NCBI GenBank assembly: GCA_030295235.1
Contig: AP026172.1
Span: 868,001-932,000 of the forward strand
Direction of reading: 5' to 3'
Length of the DNA stretch: 64,000 nt
Source of the DNA: Fistulifera solaris
Taxonomy: Eukaryota
The notes beneath the pieces were generated by a model. It was not told the origin of the DNA. It saw only the letters and a program-made list of their open reading frames with translations, and did not search any database. Shown here piece after piece: positions 48,094-61,615 of this stretch; positions within the stretch are counted from its first letter, which is position 1, and every line of letters starts with the position of its first letter. The translations under genes were made by a program, and so were the position numbers.

Positions 48094-49155
48094 GTTGCTG
48101 TAAAGTGAAGAGGAAAAGGTTCACACGAAATTATGAGTCGGCAGTTCAAGAAACTGCAATGGGCGATGGGAAGAGATTACTCCGTAGAAACGATTGGAAT
48201 GTTCGAGCGAAGCCCTCGTCAGCTCCTTTTTCTGACGTGTATTTGCAACCAATCGCACATTCAAATACGAACCACGACTATTGCATAGTACGGAGTAAAG
48301 AACACGTTTTGCTTACTCTCCGATTAGTAGAAATTTAGTCCCAGAAAAACGTCAATCCGAAACTCCTTCTTACAAAGTACATACTTTGTTGTGGTAAGGT
48401 TAAGGCTCATCACTGACACTGACCCTGCCATCAACCATCAAACAAACGATCTCGAACTTGACGACCGGTACCGATACCGGTACGGTACCAGTAAGCTATG
48501 AGACTTTGGATGTTCAGCTACGATATGAAAAAAGCAGCTGGGAGCAAAGAATTTTTCTAATAACGGCCTAAATTCGTCAATTGCAAGACCTGATTCATGA
48601 CTGACGTCCATTCACGGTAAAGTTGAGACTAAATTATGGGAGTGCAGTTGTATTCGGACGAGCACAATCCGCACCGTATCTCGCCTTAAAAAGGTGAGGC
48701 GTGAGAAGATAATGAAGCGCATCTCTCATTGGGCTATCTTTTTCTTTACATGTAGAACCGGTGAAAGGTCTTGAAACTTAAGTGTGGAGTGAAAATCATC
48801 ATATTATACAACTGTGATCCATGACTGAAAAACAGTCGTGATTTCATTCCGTAAACACCGAAGGTTTCGTGATTTCGTTCACAGTAAACACCGACGATGA
48901 AAATGCTCTTAATGATAAACCCATCTTTAAACAAAGCTATTCAAGCTTCTATAGATTACAGAACGGATTGGTACTCCGGTAGAATTTGCAGTCGCTTCGG
49001 ACCCTTCCAATTTTCATTCGATATTTGATGTGCAGTCGGAAATAGGTTTCCGTCATCAATCCCGTTTCCAACCAAGCACACGGAATAGCTTGTTTTTTAA
49101 ATTAAGCAATTCATTCTATCTTAGGCGTGAAAAACAAACTATGCTTCTTAGTTTC

Positions 49156-52144
49156 TCATTCAAATCCAGTGAAAACAGCATTGTCCTTCGCAGAGGGTGG
49201 TGAATAGTTATTGGCCTTGGTAATCTTCAATCGTTCGTTCTCCACGCCGACCGAAATAGTGTCGCCGTCGTAGTACTCGCCTGCCAAGATTCCGCGAGCA
49301 ATTACCGTTTCCAGTTCACGCTGAATAGTTCGCTTGAGAGGACGGGCACCGTAAACTGGATCAAAGCCAACATCTGCCAAAAGTCAATAGCCGCTTCGCT
49401 GACATGAATCTCGATTTGACGCTCCGCGAGGCGCTTCTCCACCCGTCTAACTTCCAACTTAACAATATTGCGAAGACTGCTCTTACCCAAGCTATTGAAA
49501 ATAATGTATTCGTCAATGCGATTCAAGAATTCAGGACGGAAATTTTCTTTCATCGCTTGCGTTACTCGTTCTTTCATTATAACTTGTGCGTCTGGCTCAT
49601 TGGATCCATTCAGATCAAGAATATCTTGACTTCCAATGTTACTTGTGAAAATGCAGATGGTGTTTCGAAAGTTCACCACGTTGCCTTTGGAATCAGTCAA
49701 GCGACCATCGTCCAGCATTTGTAGCATGACATTGTACACATCAGGGTGTGCCTTTTCCATTTCGTCAAACAGGATCACGGAATATGGTTTACGGCGAACG
49801 GCATCGGTTAACTGACCGCCCTCATCGTAACCTACGTATCCAGGTGGGGCACCAAGAAGGCGAGAAACTGTATGCTTTTCCATGTATTCCGACATGTCGA
49901 TGCGAATCAAAGCATCTTCACTGTCAAACATGAATTCAGCCAAGGCTTTGCAAAGCAGAGTCTTACCAACACCCGTCGGACCCAAAAAGATAAAAGACGC
50001 GATTGGCTTGTCGGGGTCATTGAGACCAGCTCGGGATCGTTGCACGGCCTCTGTTACGGCCTCGACGGCTTCTTCTTGGCCGACGACACGATTCTTTAGC
50101 TTTTCGCCCATGGTCAAAATACGATCTTTCTCGGTTTCTAACAATTTACCGGGAGGGATTCCGGTCCAAACAGCCACGACCGCCGCAATATCGTCGGCAA
50201 CGACTTCGTCGCGAAGCATCTTTTCGCGGTTGTTCATGTCAGATTCCGTTTCCATGGCATCCAATTGCGCCAGTTCCTCCTCTAAAGGCGGAAGGGCCGA
50301 GAACTTCAATTCAGCCGCCTTGTTCAAATCATACTCGCGTTCCGCTTTTTCGATCTCAAACTTTATACCTTGAATCTTTTCTTTCAACTCGTTAAGGCGA
50401 TTTACACCACCTTTCTCAGCCATCCAACGAGCGGTCAAGTCCTGCTGTTCCTTTTGAAGCTGAAGAAGCTCCTCATCCAACTTGGCCAGACGGTACGACT
50501 CTTCTGGCGTCGAAGATCCATCTTTTTCAAAATCGGAGCGCAACGATAGCCGTTCCATTTCCAATTGAATAATGCGGCGATCAATTTCATCCAAGATCAC
50601 GGGCTTGCTGGTGATTTCATTTTTGAGTTTTGCACAGGCTTCGTCGACAAGATCAATAGCCTTGTCGGGCAGAAAACGGTCCGGGATGTACCGATGACTA
50701 AGTTTGGCCGCCGCAAGTAAGGCTTCATCACGGATGCGAATACCGTGGTGCAATTCGTAACGTGGTTTAAGACCACGTAAAATACTGACAGTGTCTTCAG
50801 GGGTTGGCTGATCAATCATAACTTGTTGAAACCGACGTTCCAAAGCCTTATCCTTCTCAATGTATTTTCGATACTCGTTCACTGTAGTCGCACCGATGCA
50901 ACGCAATTGTCCTCGAGCCAAGGCTGGCTTCAAGAGATTACTGGCATCCATGGATCCCTGTGCGGACCCAGCGCCGACAACAGTATGCATTTCGTCAATA
51001 AACAGAATAATCTCTCCATCACTCTTCATGACTTCCTCGAGAACGGCTTTGAGTCGCTCCTCAAATTCACCACGCATCGTGGCACCAGCTACCAATGCTC
51101 CGAGGTCGAGACCAATTAGACGACTGCCTTTCAAACTCTCCGGAACGTCTCCGTCGACGATACGCTGGGCAATACCCTCCGCAACAGCCGTCTTTCCAAC
51201 TCCAGGGTCTCCAATCAGCACAGGATTGTTCTTGGTTCGTCGCGATAGTATTTGAATAGCACGTCGGATTTCGTCATCACGACCGATCACTGGGTCTAGT
51301 TTGCCTTCACGTGCTCGTTCGGTGAAATCAATGCCATATTTGTTTAGTGCATCGTACATATTCTCTGCACTTCGCGAGATGACGGGCCCCGACTTTTCAC
51401 GCATGCCTTTGACAATAGTAAGCAAGTCCTGGTATTTAACATTTTGCTTGAATAGAGCATCGCGGGTAAAGAGGGAATCTTCCTTGGCGAGCGCCAGCAA
51501 GAGTCCTTCCGACGACACGAATGAATCCTGTGAAACATAAAAGCAATGGGAATGAGTCAAGGAGTAGATACGACTACCATAGCATCTCCTGAATCATCAC
51601 TTACACCTAGTACACTCTTTACTTGCGTCGCACCGTCCAACACGGCTTGCAACGATCGTCCCATGGTCTTTTGTGCACCGGAATCCGCACTGACCTTGGC
51701 CTGTCTCGCCAAAAAGTCGTCAAGTTCTCGACGCAAGTCGCTCACGTTACATTGAGCTTGCGTCAGAATGCGTTCCACAACCTTGCGCGCCGCTTCCGCG
51801 TCGTCACCGGCGTTGTGTTTTTTGGGATTGAGCAGTAAATCCAGCATCAAAGGTGCTTCAACATTCGTCGATTGATGAAATTCGGCGGCTTTAGTCAAAC
51901 TCGCGATCGCACTCCAGGCCGCGTCAGTGTATTTGGCTTGATTAAAGTCATCAGCAGCCATCTGGAGTCTAGTAGAGAGACGATAGGGTTTGCTTGTCAA
52001 GAACAAAGAGGGAGACAAAGTGTTTGGCGATCGAGAAATAGTCGACGAAGGCACGAGTGCGGCAGGACAAAAGGCATTCGTATGTTGCCATGATGTCGAC
52101 GCAATACTTAAAAGAATAACAACTGCGCTATTTCCAATCTTCAT
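49156..52144 (-). CDS. clpB: Plastid-targeted ClpB/Hsp100 disaggregase; intron 51528-51604; frameshift near 49380
   Basis: Bipartite presequence 'TNA-FCP'; '[15 protein letters not shown]', two Walker A motifs ([16 protein letters not shown]), coiled-coil M domain, 'GAPPGYVGY', 'YGARPLKR'. Confidence 0.96.
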
Positions 52145-52974
52145 GCTTGTCTGTTTGAGCGCAGCAACAGAAGAATGAAAGGAATACGATTGATAATTAC
52201 CACTTGTCGTTCAAAAAGACGCAAAGGGAAAAATAATGAGCTATTTCGTTGCTTTCGTGTTTCGGGTTCGCTTGACATCGCTTCGTTTCGCCATCGAACG
52301 CAGTGCGCGCGTTCAACAAAACAAGGTATAGTACCTTTGAAACTTGATAACGGTCATAATTTTGCTTTGTAATTTGTACTGAAATAAATCCAATATATGA
52401 CAAAATGAAACAAAAATGGAAATTTCAGTCGAATGTCAAAATTACATTCTGACTTTAAGAAACGTAGGAATAAATATTAGGATTATCTTCAGCAAAACTC
52501 TTGACACCTGACACGTGGAACGTTTTCCGATGATTGCGCGACGTAATTCCGACAATGGCGCCTTCCTTCATTGCGTGAAACTTGGCCTTCAATTTAAAAC
52601 TGCCTTGTCATCCTGTATCAAAGAATGATATTTGCTCAGAACGATTCACAATTAGTGAGCTCGCGATGTTCAAAGGAAGGTCACACCGCTTAATAGCGAC
52701 GTTACATCGTCAAGGAGAACGTCGATGGTCGATGTGTCGAAAATATACAACAATTTGCAGCTGCAAAAAAAAGTGATTATCCAATTGCGATTGCGCATCA
52801 CTACGTTGAACGAAATATTTCGAGGAAGTGATGATGGTGCAAACATTGCGTGGAACTGATCTGATCGGACGAAACTAAAAGGAAGGATTTGGCTTGCAGT
52901 TCACGAAAGGTGCAGCGCCTACTTTTGCCTAAAGATTATTATCGCCTAAAATGCTGCTTGAACCCTAAGATGGC

Positions 52975-54903
52975 CTACATGCGACGGCTTCCCGAATCGG
53001 CCGAGTCCTTGCTGGCACTGTCGAGATGACGGCGACTTCCCGAATCTGCCGAGTGCTTGCTGGCACTGTCGAGGTGACGGCGACTTCCCGAATCTGCCGA
53101 GTCGTTGCTGGCACTGTCGAGGTGACGGCGACTTCCCGAATCGGCCGAGTCCTTGCTGGCACTGTCGAGGTGACGGCGACTTCCCGAATCGGCCGAGTCG
53201 TTGCTGGCACTGTCGAGATGACGGCGACTTCCCGAATCGGCCGAGTCCTTGCTGGCACTGTCGAGGTGACGGCGACTTCCCGAATCGGCCGAGTCGTTGC
53301 TGGCACTGTCGAGATGACGGCGGCTTCCCGAATCGGCCGAGTCCTTGCTGGCACTGTCGAGATGACGGCGACTTCCCGAATCGGCCGAGTCGTTGCTGGC
53401 ACTGTCGAGGTGACGGCGACTTCCCGAATCTGCCGAGTCCTTGCTGGCACTGTCGAGGTGACGGCGACTTCCCGAATCGGCCGAGTCCTTGCTGGCACTG
53501 TCGAGGTGACGGCGGCTTCCCGAATCGGCCGAGTCGTTGCTGGCACTGTCGAGGTGACGGCGACTTCCCGAATCTGCCGAGTCGTTGCTGGCACTGTCGA
53601 GGTGACGGCGACTCCCCGAATCGGCCGAGTCGTTGCTGGCACTGTCAAGGTGACGGCGACTTCCCGAATCGGCCGAGTCGTTGCTGGCACTGTCGAGGTG
53701 ACGGCGACTTCCCGAATCTGCCGAGTCGTTGCTGGCACTGTCGAGGTGACGGCGACTTCCCGAATCGGCCGAGTCCTTGCTGGCACTGTCGAGATGACGG
53801 CGACTTCCCGAATCGGCCGAGTCGTTGCTGGCACTGTCGAGGTGACGGCGACTTCCCGAATCTGCCGAGTCCTTGCTGGCACTGTCGAGGTGACGGCGAC
53901 TTCCCGAATCGGCCGAGTCGTTGCTGGCACTGTCGAGGTGACGGCGACTTCCCGAATCGGCCGAGTCGTTGCTGGCACTGTCGAGGTGACGGCGACTTCC
54001 CGAATCTGCCGAGTGCTTGCTGGCACTGTCGAGGTGACGGCGGCTTCCCGAATCGGCCGAGTCGTTGCTGGCACTGTCGAGGTGACGGCGACTTCCCGAA
54101 TCGGCCGAGTCGTTGCTGGCACTGTCGAGGTGACGGCGACTTCCCGAATCTGCCGAGTGCTTGCTGGCACTGTCGAGGTGACGGCGGCTTCCCGAATCGG
54201 CCGAGTCGTTGCTGGCACTGTCGAGGTGACGGCGACTTCCCGAATCGGCCGAGTCGTTGCTGGCACTGTCGAGGTGACGGCGACTTCCCGAATCGGCCGA
54301 GTCGTTGCTGGCACTGTCGAGGTGACGGCGGCTTCCCGAATCGGCCGAGTCCTTGCTGGCACTGTCGAGGTGACGGCGACTTCCCGAATCGGCCGAGTCG
54401 TTGCTGGCACTGTCGAGGTGACGGCGACTTCCCGAATCTGCCGAGTCCTTGCTGGCACTGTCGAGGTGACGGCGACTTCCCGAATCTGCCGAGTCGTTGC
54501 TGGCACTGTCGAGGTGACGGCGACTTCCCGAATCGGCCGAGTCGTTGCTGGCACTGTCGAGGTGACGGCGACTTCCCGAATCTGCCGAGTCCTTGCTGGC
54601 ACTGTCGAGGTGACGGCGACTTCCCGAATCGGCCGAGTCGTTGCTGGCACTGTTGAGGTGACGGCGACTTCCCGAATCTGCCGAGTCGTTGCTGGCACTG
54701 TCGAGGTGACGGCGACTTCCCGAATCGGCCGTGTCGTTGCTGGCACTGTCGAGATGACGGCGGCTTCCCGAATCGGCCGATTTCTTAGAGTCGTTGCTTG
54801 CCAAGAAACGCTTTCGCAACATCTGGTTGCCGCTTGGAATCTCACTTGAGCTTCCGCACGTCAAAGAGACGAGGAAGAAGAGGGTTGCAGTTGGGAACTT
54901 CAT
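52975..54903 (-). CDS. Secreted tandem-repeat polyprotein: signal peptide + propeptide (..LRKRFL) + 38 x 16-aa units DSAS(N/K)(D/H)SADSGSRRHL; silacidin-like architecture
   Basis: 642-aa ORF with ATG and hydrophobic signal peptide MKFPTATLFFLVSLTCG; most nucleotide variants among repeats are synonymous in this frame. Confidence 0.8.
   Translation of the reverse strand: MKFPTATLFFLVSLTCGSSSEIPSGNQMLRKRFLASNDSKKSADSGSRRHLDSASNDTADSGSRRHLDSASNDSADSGSRRHLNSASNDSADSGSRRHLDSASKDSADSGSRRHLDSASNDSADSGSRRHLDSASNDSADSGSRRHLDSASKDSADSGSRRHLDSASNDSADSGSRRHLDSASKDSADSGSRRHLDSASNDSADSGSRRHLDSASNDSADSGSRRHLDSASNDSADSGSRRHLDSASKHSADSGSRRHLDSASNDSADSGSRRHLDSASNDSADSGSRRHLDSASKHSADSGSRRHLDSASNDSADSGSRRHLDSASNDSADSGSRRHLDSASKDSADSGSRRHLDSASNDSADSGSRRHLDSASKDSADSGSRRHLDSASNDSADSGSRRHLDSASNDSADSGSRRHLDSASNDSADSGSRRHLDSASNDSADSGSRRHLDSASNDSADSGSRRHLDSASKDSADSGSRRHLDSASKDSADSGSRRHLDSASNDSADSGSRRHLDSASKDSADSGSRRHLDSASNDSADSGSRRHLDSASKDSADSGSRRHLDSASNDSADSGSRRHLDSASKDSADSGSRRHLDSASNDSADSGSRRHLDSASKHSADSGSRRHLDSASKDSADSGSRRM
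52983..54790. repeat. 48-bp coding tandem repeat, ~38 copies
   Basis: Unit GCTGGCACTGTCGAGGTGACGGCGACTTCCCGAATCGGCCGAGTCGTT repeated head-to-tail with few substitutions. Confidence 0.97.
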
Positions 54904-56435: not shown

Positions 56436-57035
56436 TTAGTTCTGATCATCGGTGCTGTCATGTGCAATATCATCTGCGCTATCGGTGTCGTTATTATGCG
56501 TTTCAATCATCGCGTATCCACTTTCGCAACCCGTGGCGTTCAACACAATTTTCAAAAACGCCCTTTCACAGCCACTGAAATTTATGTTGTTGCCCACGCC
56601 CGTGATTTCGCAACCACTCCTATCCGTTTCGATTACCATTGATCCATGGTTGCAGTTACTGATGTTCATTTCGATTTCGAGAACTACGTCGGTGTGGTTA
56701 ATCACAATTGTCTCGTCATCAGCACTATCGGAATCGCGGTACAGGACGTTGTTCGAATCGCTGTCGTCGCTCTTATCGTCGGAGGAATTTGCGTTATGTT
56801 GAAGGCGACGACCAAAAGAGTGTACAATTGTCGACAAGCGGTCAAACGGGGCGATGCCCACGCTTTCTAGCTCGAACCGGTGCTTTCTTAAAAGCGAACT
56901 CGAATGAGGGCTCAGGTTTGCATGCGTCGGTTCATCTAGATCGCTTTTGACCTCGTGGTTGGGCAATGAAGCGAGGACCAAGAACGATTCTTTCAGAAAC
57001 GCAGACACGAAAAGACAAAGTAAACGGCAATTCAT
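56436..57035 (-). CDS. Secreted acidic protein with RRL processing motif and Cys-containing internal repeats
   Basis: Signal-like N-terminus; 'FGRRL' followed by Asp/Ser-rich SSDDKSDDSDS and DSDSADD; repeats NISNCNHGSMVIET / NATGCESGYAMIET. Confidence 0.65.
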   Translation of the reverse strand: MNCRLLCLFVSAFLKESFLVLASLPNHEVKSDLDEPTHANLSPHSSSLLRKHRFELESVGIAPFDRLSTIVHSFGRRLQHNANSSDDKSDDSDSNNVLYRDSDSADDETIVINHTDVVLEIEMNISNCNHGSMVIETDRSGCEITGVGNNINFSGCERAFLKIVLNATGCESGYAMIETHNNDTDSADDIAHDSTDDQN

Positions 57036-60271: not shown

Positions 60272-61615
60272 ATGACAGAAGTGAGAGACACGAAAGATTC
60301 TGGAAAGGCGTTATTTGCGACACGCGAATATGCAATCGGTGATATCATCTTGCAAGAAGACAAGCCGTTGGCTATCTTGTCGCACACTACTTCTTATAGC
60401 GCTAAAAATGATTCTCCGTTCATTGCTATTGCGCAGGCTTATCAACAGAGCAACACCCAGTTAGATATTGAGGCGAAATTGTTATCGCTTTATCACCCAC
60501 AGGCTGACACGGCAAATCCTGCGGAACAGGAACTCTGGAAAAATAGCCAATCCGCCGCGGAAAACGACGATCGTCTTCACAAAATCATTATGATTGCATG
60601 CTGTAACTCTTTTCAAGGAGGATATGTGTACGAACATGCCAGTCGAATCAATCATTCCTGTCAGCCGAATGCAATTGTGAATATACAAGAGGACACTGGT
60701 GCATTGCTCTTACGAGCATTGACGCCGATTGTTGTCGGCGAAGAAATTGGCATTTCCTACGCCGGCTTGTATCTGTATACCGATACCAGGGCACGCCAGC
60801 ATGTATTGCGCCGTGATAAATTCTTTGATTGTGCCTGTGTACGGTGTCAAGAGGCTGTCGACCCGGCGAATATGATCCCTTGTACTAAATGTCATCCTCG
60901 GCACCAATCTCATTTGGATGAAGCGACCCAATACGATGACGACGACGAGCACCCCGTGAAATACATGATGTGGAAGAGTGATCAATTCGTTTGTGAGTCA
61001 TGCGATTATGTAGAAACGTTAAAATCATCTGTCGCTACCGTGGTACATTCTATCTCGGATAAAGTTTTGCAATTTCTTGAACAATACAAGGAACAAGACA
61101 ACAGCTCGAAGGCGTCCTCTGAACAGAAAGACAATGCGCCCCAGGACGAACAGGACGAAGAATTGGAATCGCTATTGCAGGAGCACTTATCGCTAGCGAG
61201 CAGTGTGTTGGGCGCTCGTCACTGGACGACAAATTTGTTGCTTCTACTGTATCTCGATCGGGGATTGAAGCAATACCACAAAAAGCTTATTTTTCAACAA
61301 GCGGCTGACGATGACATGCAGCTGGACTTGGCAGAACACATCGATCATTTACAACGTATCACGCAGTTTGTGAAAAGGCTAAAACTTCACTTGCACCCGG
61401 GCCATTTGCTTTCCGACGTGATTGTCGGGATAGCGCGTGCATTAGTAAGCTTGAGCGATGTCAAATCCGCTCAGTATGCTACCAGATGGTTGGATCATTT
61501 GATTGGATACGAGCCTTTCTTGTCTGAGGCGCTTGTCAAAGTGGTTGACTCGCTCAAAAGTGCATGGACACGTATGGAAGCCGACGAACCGGCACATAAA
61601 AAACTAAAGGGATAA
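60272..61615 (+). CDS. SET-domain (SMYD-like) lysine methyltransferase
   Basis: 'GKALFATREY..GD.IL', 'RINHSCQPN', 'GEEIGISY', post-SET 'FDCACVRC'. Confidence 0.88.
   Translation: MTEVRDTKDSGKALFATREYAIGDIILQEDKPLAILSHTTSYSAKNDSPFIAIAQAYQQSNTQLDIEAKLLSLYHPQADTANPAEQELWKNSQSAAENDDRLHKIIMIACCNSFQGGYVYEHASRINHSCQPNAIVNIQEDTGALLLRALTPIVVGEEIGISYAGLYLYTDTRARQHVLRRDKFFDCACVRCQEAVDPANMIPCTKCHPRHQSHLDEATQYDDDDEHPVKYMMWKSDQFVCESCDYVETLKSSVATVVHSISDKVLQFLEQYKEQDNSSKASSEQKDNAPQDEQDEELESLLQEHLSLASSVLGARHWTTNLLLLLYLDRGLKQYHKKLIFQQAADDDMQLDLAEHIDHLQRITQFVKRLKLHLHPGHLLSDVIVGIARALVSLSDVKSAQYATRWLDHLIGYEPFLSEALVKVVDSLKSAWTRMEADEPAHKKLKG

What the first reader, a model, noticed from the sequence alone, without database searches (positions are those of the whole stretch)
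52975..54903. Silacidin-like polyprotein: 38 RRHL-delimited Ser/Asp peptides behind a signal peptide
Seen: signal peptide, a short propeptide ending LRKRFL, one variant unit, 36 full 16-aa units DSAS(N/K)(D/H)SADSGSRRHL and a final unit ending RRM. Each core (DSASNDSADSGS) has 5 Ser and 3 Asp, and the ND variant carries an N-x-S sequon. Known: diatom biosilica proteins are processed at RxL motifs, and Thalassiosira pseudonana silacidins are Ser/Asp/Glu-rich phosphopeptides released from a repetitive precursor at RRL spacers. Inference: this gene yields ~38 copies of a short, probably phosphorylated polyanionic peptide for silica deposition or extracellular matrix. I do not recognise the sequence as a described silacidin, so it may be an independent family. 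An alternative is a Kex2-type (RR) repeat-peptide precursor for signalling or adhesion.
Basis: partly seen in the sequence, partly recalled or inferred. Interest (0 to 1): 0.9.

Follow-up and report, generated by a model that had tools for sequence, protein, structure and literature searches.

The report
Unannotated diatom acidic-peptide polyprotein gene
A transcribed gene missing from the public protein set of a pennate diatom encodes a secreted precursor of about 38 near-identical Ser/Asp-rich peptides, each ending in the cleavage-type spacer RRHL, built like known silica-forming peptide precursors but unrelated to them in sequence and untested in function.

Summary
Window 52975-54903 (minus strand) is one intronless 642-aa ORF. 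It has a signal-peptide-like N-terminus and a short propeptide ending RFL. Then come one variant unit, 36 sixteen-residue units that all end RRHL, and a last unit ending RRM.

The frame is the coding one. It alone has gene-like codon usage. 5 of 9 variable repeat sites are synonymous in it.

It is transcribed from the minus strand. An RNA-run contig carries a non-templated poly(A) tail 64 nt after the stop.

The protein is absent from a 15-billion-protein collection that holds four of its neighbours. phmmer over 1.84 billion representatives found only unrelated tandem-repeat proteins. Cluster mates of the neighbours are named Fistulifera solaris, a raphid pennate diatom.

The architecture is that of the Cylindrotheca silaffin precursor Sil1p (signal peptide, RXL, units ending RRIL/RRNL). 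The cores, however, are acidic like silacidins.

The best reading is a secretory polyprotein cut at RRHL into about 38 acidic, probably phosphorylated 12-mers, most likely for silica formation. Processing, phosphorylation and the link to silica are all inferred. It is an orphan analogue, not a member of the silacidin family.

The parts
52975..54903 (-). Complete intronless coding sequence, 642 codons plus stop (stop codon at 52977-52975)
   Evidence: ORF list. It is the only frame with gene-like codon usage: 0.161 log2 odds per codon against -0.329 to 0.016 for the other five frames, with 7 reference genes at 0.09-0.22. 5 of 9 variable repeat sites are synonymous in this frame. The first in-frame stop upstream is at codon -22, with no in-frame ATG between.
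54844..54903 (-). Signal-peptide-like N-terminus (about aa 1-20: MK, hydrophobic FPTATLFFLVSLT, small-residue CGSSS). The cleavage site is approximate.
   Evidence: Read from the translation. The best 10-aa Kyte-Doolittle window scores about 2.15 by hand, just under the 2.2 cut-off of my own scan. SignalP was not available. No aromatic residue follows the likely cleavage site, so a plastid presequence is unlikely (inference from the diatom ASAFAP rule, recalled).
54802..54843 (-). Short propeptide (about aa 21-34, EIPSGNQMLRKRFL) ending in the RXL tripeptide RFL
   Evidence: Translation. A stretch after the signal peptide that ends in RXL is called the 'RXL domain' and is typical of diatom biosilica proteins (PMC5525289 passages).
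54751..54801 (-). Variant first unit ASNDSKKSADSGS + RRHL (aa 35-51), the only unit with a Lys-Lys pair
53023..54750 (-). 36 tandem 48-bp / 16-aa units, each an acidic core (12 aa) plus an RRHL spacer
   Evidence: 9 of 48 columns vary. There are no non-synonymous changes in the RRHL codons.
52978..53022 (-). Last unit DSASKDSADSGS + RRM (aa 628-642)
52911..52974 (-). 3' untranslated region, 64 nt, with a poly(A) addition site at 52911
   Evidence: table 7. In run X3 a contig carries 24 non-templated T before 52911 on the + strand. The genome there is not T-rich. The same contig (depth 32) covers 52922. X2 and X3 are shown to be RNA by the spliced 77-nt ClpB intron and by no cover of 52264-52807.

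Best explanation
This is a real, expressed, intronless gene of a raphid pennate diatom. Its neighbours' closest named relatives are Fistulifera solaris proteins. The gene is missing from the public protein set.

It encodes a secretory polyprotein. The likely route is as follows. A signal peptide takes it into the ER. The serines of the cores are phosphorylated in the ER/Golgi; there are two S-x-D and two S-x-S sites per unit. The diatom RXL-type endoprotease then cuts after each Leu of RFL/RRHL, and the basic RRHL tails are trimmed off, as happens to the RRIL/RRNL tails of Sil1p. The result would be about 38 copies of a 12-13-residue polyanion, mostly DSASNDSADSGS and DSASKDSADSGS.

In the precursor the two Arg and the His of each spacer nearly cancel the three Asp of each core. 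The calculated pI of the whole protein is 6.3, against 4.05 for a core. The peptides therefore become strongly anionic only after cleavage.

The most likely use is as the polyanionic partner of long-chain polyamines in silica deposition, which is the role shown for Thalassiosira silacidins.

Shown here: the ORF, the repeat anatomy, the coding frame, the minus-strand polyadenylated transcript, and the absence of relatives. Inferred: secretion, cleavage, phosphorylation and the silica role.

My odds: real expressed coding gene 0.9; secreted and cut into peptides about 0.55; silica-related as well about 0.35-0.45.
For: Anatomy.

Coding frame: codon log-odds is 0.161 per codon in this frame, against 0.016 or less in the other five frames. 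7 reference genes of the window score 0.09-0.22 in frame.

Selection: 5 of 9 variable sites in the repeat are synonymous, where 32 of 144 possible changes would be. The binomial probability is about 0.03, computed by hand. The two other long open frames have 3 of 9. The 4 non-synonymous sites all lie in the core and none in RRHL.

Transcription: X2 and X3 splice the ClpB intron 51527-51603 (GT..AG on the minus strand) and leave the intergenic 52264-52807 uncovered. Both cover 52944-53060. X3 shows a 24-nt non-templated tail at 52911, which fixes the strand as minus.

Known biology, from passages read: Sil1p has a signal peptide, an RXL after it, and units R1-R7 ending RRIL/RRNL that are absent from the mature silaffins; RXL is taken as a general endopeptidase motif; the silacidin precursor is highly repetitive and releases acidic peptides rich in Asp and Glu whose many serines are phosphorylated, which precipitate silica with polyamines (PMC4557024). 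An 'RXL domain' after the signal peptide is typical of biosilica proteins (PMC5525289).

Charge cancelling.

Context: the adjacent gene on the same strand (56436-57035) also encodes signal peptide - RRL - acidic Ser/Asp stretch.
Against: There is no direct evidence for secretion, cleavage, phosphorylation or silica association.

No relative was found anywhere. Conservation therefore cannot support function, and the array is young (95% DNA identity), so the perfect RRHL could simply reflect recent expansion.

The synonymous excess rests on 9 sites.

The cores have Asp but no Glu, whereas the review describes silacidin peptides as rich in both. The cores also lack the KxxK lysine clusters that the review ties to silaffins and cingulins.

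The other neighbouring genes are ordinary: ClpB, lipocalin, Asn-synthase-like, TPR, SET.

The tpSTK1 kinase does not phosphorylate silacidins, so the kinase for such substrates is unknown.

The signal peptide was judged by eye and by hydropathy, not with SignalP.
Confidence: 0.45

Rival explanations
1. The protein is secreted but stays whole. It would be a 65-kDa, near-neutral, disordered, heavily O-phosphorylated or glycosylated repeat protein of the cell coat, mucilage or adhesive trail of a raphid diatom. On this reading the RRHL sites are not cleaved.
For: The N-terminus is signal-peptide-like. The protein is 30% Ser (194 of 642 residues) and has 24 N-x-S/T sequons. Raphid pennates secrete abundant repetitive matrix proteins (recalled). 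Nothing here shows cleavage.
Against: 37 of 37 spacers keep the exact R-R-x-L form that is removed from Sil1p. All 4 non-synonymous changes fall in the cores and none in the spacers. Charge cancelling unit by unit is what precursors of highly charged peptides show (established pattern, inference). The protein has no Pro/Thr-rich or Cys-rich adhesive-type domains.
Confidence: 0.2
2. The protein is a Kex2/furin-type precursor, cut after the Arg-Arg pair. It would release about 38 copies of HLDSAS..SGS as a diffusible signal (pheromone, allelochemical or metal- or calcium-binding peptide) with no role in silica.
For: Dibasic RR occurs at a strict 16-residue spacing behind a signal peptide. This is the build of fungal and animal repeat-peptide precursors (recalled). 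An unrelated hit, P0126, shows that build with KR spacers.
Against: In diatoms the documented processing motif for repetitive secretory precursors is RXL, and Sil1p uses the same R-R-x-L tetrapeptide. A very acidic, Ser-rich, low-information 12-mer is an unlikely specific ligand (inference). The N/K/H variants among copies argue against one defined signal.
Confidence: 0.12
3. The array is an expanded minisatellite that happens to be open and transcribed. Any product is not made, or has no function.
For: Three other frames are also open across the array. The units are 95% identical at the DNA level. There are no relatives. No protein model of it exists in public sets.
Against: Codon usage is gene-like only in the frame that also carries the ATG, the signal peptide and the RXL propeptide. 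There is a synonymous excess in that frame. The mRNA is polyadenylated with a short 3' UTR right after the stop. Absence from annotation could be explained by repeat masking before gene prediction; this was described for another diatom genome project (PMC11151724 passage), but I did not check how this genome was annotated.
Confidence: 0.1

Closest known systems
Silaffin precursor Sil1p of Cylindrotheca fusiformis (raphid pennate diatom)
   Same: Both have a signal peptide, an RXL motif shortly behind it, and then short tandem units each closed by an R-R-x-L tetrapeptide. In Sil1p these are RRIL/RRNL and are absent from the mature peptides (PMC4557024 passages); here the spacer is RRHL. Both cores are Ser-rich. 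The first unit here has a Lys-Lys pair.
   Different: Sil1p has 7 units and its cores are strongly basic, with lysine clusters that carry polyamines. It also has an 88-residue acidic N-terminal domain. The protein here has 38 units. Its cores are acidic (3 Asp, 0-1 Lys) and its propeptide is only about 14 residues. No sequence relationship was detected, but Sil1p itself was not compared directly, because I held no tool-given copy of its sequence.
Silacidin precursor of Thalassiosira pseudonana (centric diatom)
   Same: Both are highly repetitive secretory precursors. Proteolysis of the silacidin precursor releases short, very acidic, Ser-rich peptides. These are serine-phosphorylated and act with long-chain polyamines in silica precipitation. 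Both have RXL motifs at the ends of the repeats.
   Different: Silacidin peptides are described as rich in Asp and Glu, with an SEDS..SE-like motif quoted in PMC12533330. The cores here have no Glu. Silacidin homologues were reported only from centric diatoms, and none from the Phaeodactylum or Fragilariopsis genomes (PMC5649158 passages). 0 of the 150 listed phmmer hits was an acidic RRL/RRxL repeat protein. The resemblance is functional and architectural, not homology.
Kex2-processed repeat-peptide precursors (fungal alpha-factor type)
   Same: Both have a signal peptide followed by many copies of a short peptide separated by dibasic sites (recalled, not tested here).
   Different: These occur in a different lineage and use a different protease system. 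Their spacers are usually KR. Their cores are specific ligands rather than low-complexity polyanions.
Acidic Ser/Asp phosphoproteins of animal biominerals (dentin phosphophoryn type)
   Same: Both show Asp/Ser-dominated low complexity with dense serine phosphorylation sites next to acidic residues (recalled).
   Different: Those proteins act whole, not cut into peptides. They serve calcium phosphate mineral. They are unrelated in lineage.

Membership tests
Silacidins (T. pseudonana type) | Sequence homology to the T. pseudonana silacidin precursor | tested here: inconclusive
   phmmer over 1.84 billion representatives gave 290 hits at E<=1e-3. 0 of the 150 listed has S+D+E above 0.40 together with 4 or more RRL/RRxL. 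I could not confirm that the silacidin precursor is in that library, and I did not compare it directly. Published searches found none in two pennate genomes.
Silacidins (T. pseudonana type) | Repetitive precursor with signal peptide; acidic Ser-rich peptides bounded by RXL motifs | tested here: met
   There are 38 cores with pI 4.05 and 37 RRHL spacers plus RFL. The signal peptide was judged by eye and hydropathy only.
Silacidins (T. pseudonana type) | Serine phosphorylation, presence in ammonium-fluoride extracts of biosilica, and silica precipitation with long-chain polyamines | not testable with these tools
   Needs biochemistry. Sequence shows only 73 S-x-D/E and 76 S-x-S sites.
Silaffin Sil1p-type precursors | Signal peptide, RXL after it, and tandem units ending in an R-R-x-L tetrapeptide | tested here: met
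   compared with passages of PMC4557024.
Silaffin Sil1p-type precursors | Basic cores with lysine clusters (KxxK) that carry polyamine and methyl modifications | tested here: not met
   There are 18 Lys in 642 residues. 23 of 36 full units have no Lys, the other 13 full units and the last unit have one each, and only the first unit has KK. The cores carry a net charge of -2 to -3.
Diatom RXL-domain secretory proteins (general class) | Signal peptide followed within about 15-30 residues by RXL | tested here: met
   RFL is at aa 32-34. The class is described in PMC5525289 and PMC5501833.
Diatom RXL-domain secretory proteins (general class) | Actual proteolytic removal at RXL | not testable with these tools
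   The protease is still unidentified according to the passages read.
Any Pfam family | Match to a curated profile | tested here: not met
   0 families at E<=0.01.

The most novel reading that the evidence does not exclude
A lineage-specific, recently expanded 38-copy gene may supply a pennate diatom with its silica-forming polyanion. It would have arisen independently of the centric silacidins while reusing the R-R-x-L release system of pennate silaffins. Because its array is probably masked before gene prediction, it is invisible in proteomes and proteomics databases. If so, tandem-repeat peptide precursors may be a systematically missed class of diatom biomineralisation genes.
Probability: 0.3. 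Interest if true: 0.7.

Novelty: new variant of a known kind. Interest (0 to 1): 0.55.

Why it matters
Silacidins are the only known natural polyanionic partners of long-chain polyamines in diatom silica formation. They have been reported only from centric diatoms. What plays that role in pennates is open.

This gene is a concrete, testable candidate. It sits in a genome whose neighbouring proteins are named Fistulifera solaris, a species that recurs in a review of diatom genetic engineering (search listing only). Its product is a simple 12-mer that can be synthesised and assayed.

The gene also illustrates a blind spot. It is expressed, yet it is in no protein collection searched here. Database-dependent frustule proteomics could therefore not have found it.

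If the silica role fails, it is still an unusually high-copy secreted peptide precursor in an alga.

Tried and rejected
1. Own-genome search was not possible: no genome is held.

2. Word-indexed protein search at near and shorter lengths found no hit.

3. phmmer over all representatives gave 290 hits at E<=1e-3. I inspected 16 of the 150 listed by eye and screened all 150 by motif and composition. They are unrelated proteins with 8-16-residue tandem repeats, matched through periodicity, so I reject them as relatives. The other 140 hits were not listed and I did not see them.

4. The ESM Atlas gave no usable hit for the target or for the neighbour.

5. Metagenome contigs: the protein-pattern scan matched 143 stretches, and none was confirmed by tblastn. 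tblastn's low-complexity filter may hide true matches. A degenerate 33-nt pattern of the unit junction gave 0 matches.

6. Prokaryote genome contigs gave nothing with the neighbour alignment (227 pattern matches, none confirmed) or with the DNA pattern (0 matches), as expected for a eukaryotic gene.

7. Earlier findings of this scan held nothing.

8. Paralogy of the target with the adjacent acidic RRL protein is rejected. BLASTP gave no alignment. Smith-Waterman scored 37, reached by 60 of 1000 shuffles. blastn of the 5' regions gave only 8-13-nt chance matches.

9. Alternative frames: the 607-aa plus-strand ORF and the 626-aa minus-strand ORF are not in the protein collection either (0 of 2). 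Both have poor codon scores.

10. A literature search for the unit's peptide string found 0 papers.

12. Run X6, a metatranscriptome, gave only one 78-nt contig on the last unit, 50 letters aligned with 1 mismatch. That is too short to count as evidence.

13. Parts without cover in X2 and X3 were used only to tell RNA from DNA, together with the intron joint.

14. I could not fetch the homeologous contig or the 58.8-kb, 41.3-kb and 14.9-kb contigs that carry relatives of the neighbours.
Full report
**1. What is there**

One search lists an ATG-started open reading frame of 642 codons at 52975-54903 on the minus strand. One search dissected its product into five parts.
- An N-terminus that looks like a signal peptide: Met-Lys, a 13-residue hydrophobic stretch, then Cys-Gly-Ser-Ser-Ser.
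- A propeptide of about 14 residues that ends Leu-Arg-Lys-Arg-Phe-Leu.
- One variant unit, ASNDSKKSADSGS-RRHL.
- 36 units of exactly 16 residues.
- A last unit, DSASKDSADSGS-RRM, followed by the stop.

All 36 of 36 full units end in RRHL. The cores are DSASNDSADSGS (21), DSASKDSADSGS (10, plus the last unit), DSASKHSADSGS (3), DSASNDTADSGS (1) and NSASNDSADSGS (1).

Tandem Repeats Finder reports a 48-bp period, 37.4 copies and 95% matches. The unit occurs nowhere else in the window: 35 matches at up to 3 mismatches, all in the array, with 0 expected. There are 37 RRHL plus one RRM, and 2 of 36 units deviate from the stated pattern.

**2. Is this frame the gene?**

Because the unit has no stop codons in four frames, three other long ORFs overlap the array. 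Three lines of evidence single out the reported frame.
- It is the one with an ATG, a signal-peptide-like start and no in-frame ATG further upstream. The first upstream stop is at codon -22.
- Its codon usage, scored against seven other genes of the window, is 0.161 log2 odds per codon. That is inside the range of those genes (0.09-0.22). The other five frames score -0.329 to 0.016.
- Of the 9 variable columns among the 36 units, 5 are synonymous in this frame, although only 32 of 144 possible single changes would be. The other two long open frames have 3 of 9. By hand this is a binomial probability of about 0.03. It is modest, because there are only nine sites.

The four amino-acid-changing sites all lie in the core, at positions 1, 5, 6 and 7. 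None lies in RRHL.

**3. Is it expressed, and from which strand?**

I laid the contigs of four runs on 49000-53060. That stretch holds the neighbouring ClpB gene, the intergenic region and the 3' end of the target. I left the array out because the tool turns away long repeats.
- Runs X2 and X3 join 51526 to 51604, skipping 77 nt with GT..AG on the minus strand. This is the ClpB intron.
- X2 and X3 have no cover over 52264-52807, so they are RNA.
- X1 covers both the intron and the intergenic region, so it behaves as DNA.
- X2 and X3 both cover 52944-53060.
- In X3 a contig of depth 32 starts at 52911 and is preceded by 24 T that are not in the genome. On the minus strand that is a poly(A) tail 64 nt after the stop codon.
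- The same kind of tail marks the end of ClpB at 49093.

So a polyadenylated minus-strand transcript ends just behind this ORF. Not shown: the 5' end, and one molecule spanning the whole ORF.

**4. Whose gene, and is it annotated?**

An exact look-up in a collection of about 15 billion proteins found 4 of 6 window ORFs: the 199-aa neighbour, a 346-aa protein, a SET-domain protein and a lipocalin. All four sit on a 134,552-bp contig from NCBI/UniRef/EukProt. Their cluster mates at 90% identity or more are named Fistulifera solaris: FisN_6Hh005, FisN_6Hh006 and a lipocalin, on a 265,118-bp contig.

ClpB contigs in X1-X3 come in two versions that differ at 35 of 439 letters. That fits two diverged subgenomes. 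That this species is an allodiploid is recalled, not tested.

The window is therefore from this raphid pennate diatom or a very close relative.

The target's sequence is not in the collection, and neither are the two alternative-frame ORFs. phmmer against 1.84 billion cluster representatives returned nothing resembling it, and a near-identical model would have scored enormously. On the homeologous contig the accession numbers of the lipocalin, the 200-aa protein and the 346-aa protein (GAX25952, 25954, 25955) leave room for only one gene between lipocalin and the 200-aa protein. By synteny that gene would be ClpB (inference).

The gene thus appears to be unannotated in both subgenomes. A likely reason is repeat masking before gene prediction. 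This was described for another diatom genome project in a passage of PMC11151724. I did not check how this genome was annotated.

**5. Relatives**

None were found.
- The word-indexed search (near and shorter lengths) gave none.
- Pfam gave none.
- The ESM Atlas gave none.
- The metagenome contig scans, by protein pattern and by a degenerate DNA pattern, gave none.
- The prokaryote genome contig scan gave none.

The 290 phmmer hits at E<=1e-3 are an artefact of periodicity. All 150 listed were screened, and 0 combines acidic composition with RRL/RRxL spacing. The 16 that I read are unrelated repeat proteins.

The tblastn confirmation may be blind to low-complexity matches, so that one negative is weak.

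**6. How it most likely works**

The literature passages I read give the template. The review PMC4557024 says the following.
- The Cylindrotheca silaffin precursor Sil1p has a signal peptide, an RXL motif behind it, and repeat units R1-R7 that end in RRIL or RRNL. These tetrapeptides are absent from the mature silaffins.
- RXL motifs also close the repeats of silacidins, cingulins and frustulins. RXL is taken to be the recognition motif of a still unknown endopeptidase.
- The T. pseudonana silacidin precursor is highly repetitive. It releases peptides rich in Asp and Glu whose many serines are phosphorylated. These peptides precipitate silica together with long-chain polyamines. Phosphorylation is essential for this.

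PMC5525289 calls the short stretch between the signal peptide and the RXL the 'RXL domain' and describes it as typical of biosilica proteins.

The present protein has every one of these architectural elements, and its spacer is of the Sil1p R-R-x-L form. I therefore infer ER import, serine phosphorylation, cleavage after the Leu of RFL and of each RRHL, and trimming of the basic tails. There are 73 S-x-D/E and 76 S-x-S sites. That acid-directed secretory kinases prefer such sites is recalled. The result would be about 38 peptides of 12-13 residues.

One feature supports processing. Each 16-residue unit is nearly neutral, with 3 Asp against 2 Arg and a His. The whole protein has pI 6.3, while a bare core has pI 4.05 and a charge of -2 to -3 before any phosphate. 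The polyanion exists only after the spacers are removed.

The most likely use is the silacidin-like one. That step is inference from analogy and from the organism being a diatom. I give the whole chain about 0.35-0.45.

**7. Rivals**

- An uncleaved secreted matrix or mucilage protein (0.2).
- A dibasic-cleaved diffusible peptide with a non-silica role (0.12).
- A transcribed but functionless minisatellite ORF (0.1).

The evidence for and against each is given in the Rival explanations section. The decisive discriminator is mass spectrometry with this ORF in the database.

**8. Comparison and membership**

It works like a hybrid: the Sil1p release architecture with silacidin-like acidic cargo.
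- It is not a Sil1p-type silaffin in the defining chemical sense, because the lysine clusters are absent (tested, not met).
- Membership in the silacidin family by homology is not supported. No such hit was found, the cores have no Glu, and published searches found silacidin homologues only in centric diatoms (PMC5649158 passages).
- I could not compare it directly with the silacidin sequence, so that row is inconclusive rather than failed.
- Passages in PMC12533330 note that silaffins and silacidins are not conserved even within a genus. They also note that compositional look-alikes without sequence similarity have been proposed in another pennate. An unrelated analogue is therefore what the field would expect.

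**9. Novelty and score**

I found no paper containing the unit's peptide string. The 7 papers that mention both Fistulifera and silacidin I saw only as a search listing. For two of them, PMC12533330 and PMC11151724, I also read passages around the search terms, and those passages describe no such gene. These searches cover only the held open-access library. Subscription papers on Fistulifera frustule proteins were not searchable.

I rate it a new variant of a known kind. It is a known type of precursor with a new combination of features: acidic cores, R-R-x-L spacers, 38 copies and a pennate host. It is an orphan and is missing from annotation.

Interest is 0.55. It is a good, directly testable candidate for the unknown pennate counterpart of silacidins, but its function is entirely inferred.

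Noticed in passing
window 56436-57035 (-): The adjacent gene on the same strand encodes a 199-aa protein. It has a signal peptide, a conserved LRKH(R/P)F motif, an RRL (RHL in the homeologue) at residues 76-79, an acidic Ser/Asp stretch with invariant DSDSAD, a four-Cys domain and a C-terminal NDTDSADD. Only 5 relatives were found, one named Fistulifera solaris FisN_6Hh006 (77% identity). Pfam gave no match. It is not significantly similar to the target. It looks like another RXL-domain secretory protein of unknown role.
   Followed up: partly
window 49302-52144 (-): This is a ClpB-type chaperone gene. Its N-terminus looks like a diatom plastid presequence: a signal peptide followed by Asn-Ala-Phe-Cys-Pro. 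A 77-nt intron (51527-51603) is spliced in RNA runs X2 and X3, and a poly(A) site lies at 49093. Two versions differing at 35 of 439 letters occur in X1-X3, as expected for two subgenomes.
   Followed up: partly
window 52400-52535: An A-rich intergenic element reaches summed depth 1136 from 25 contigs in the DNA-like run X1, against 8-34 around it. Many loose ends surround it. It is probably a dispersed repeat.
   Followed up: no
window 60272-61615 (+): A SET-domain protein of 447 aa (Pfam SET, E 1.7e-10) lies here, with a Cys-rich stretch after the domain. A reference title seen links diatom-specific SET-domain methyltransferases to silica cell-wall formation. I did not check whether this one belongs to that group.
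   Followed up: no
window 53023-54750 (-): The order of unit variants shows local higher-order blocks: ND-ND-KH occurs twice in a row, and ND and KD alternate over a run of nine units towards the 3' end. This suggests growth by duplication of two- and three-unit blocks.
   Followed up: no
window 52922: Both X1 and X3 contigs carry one extra T behind 52922 in the 3' UTR, relative to the window. This is a strain difference or an assembly error in a short run.
   Followed up: no
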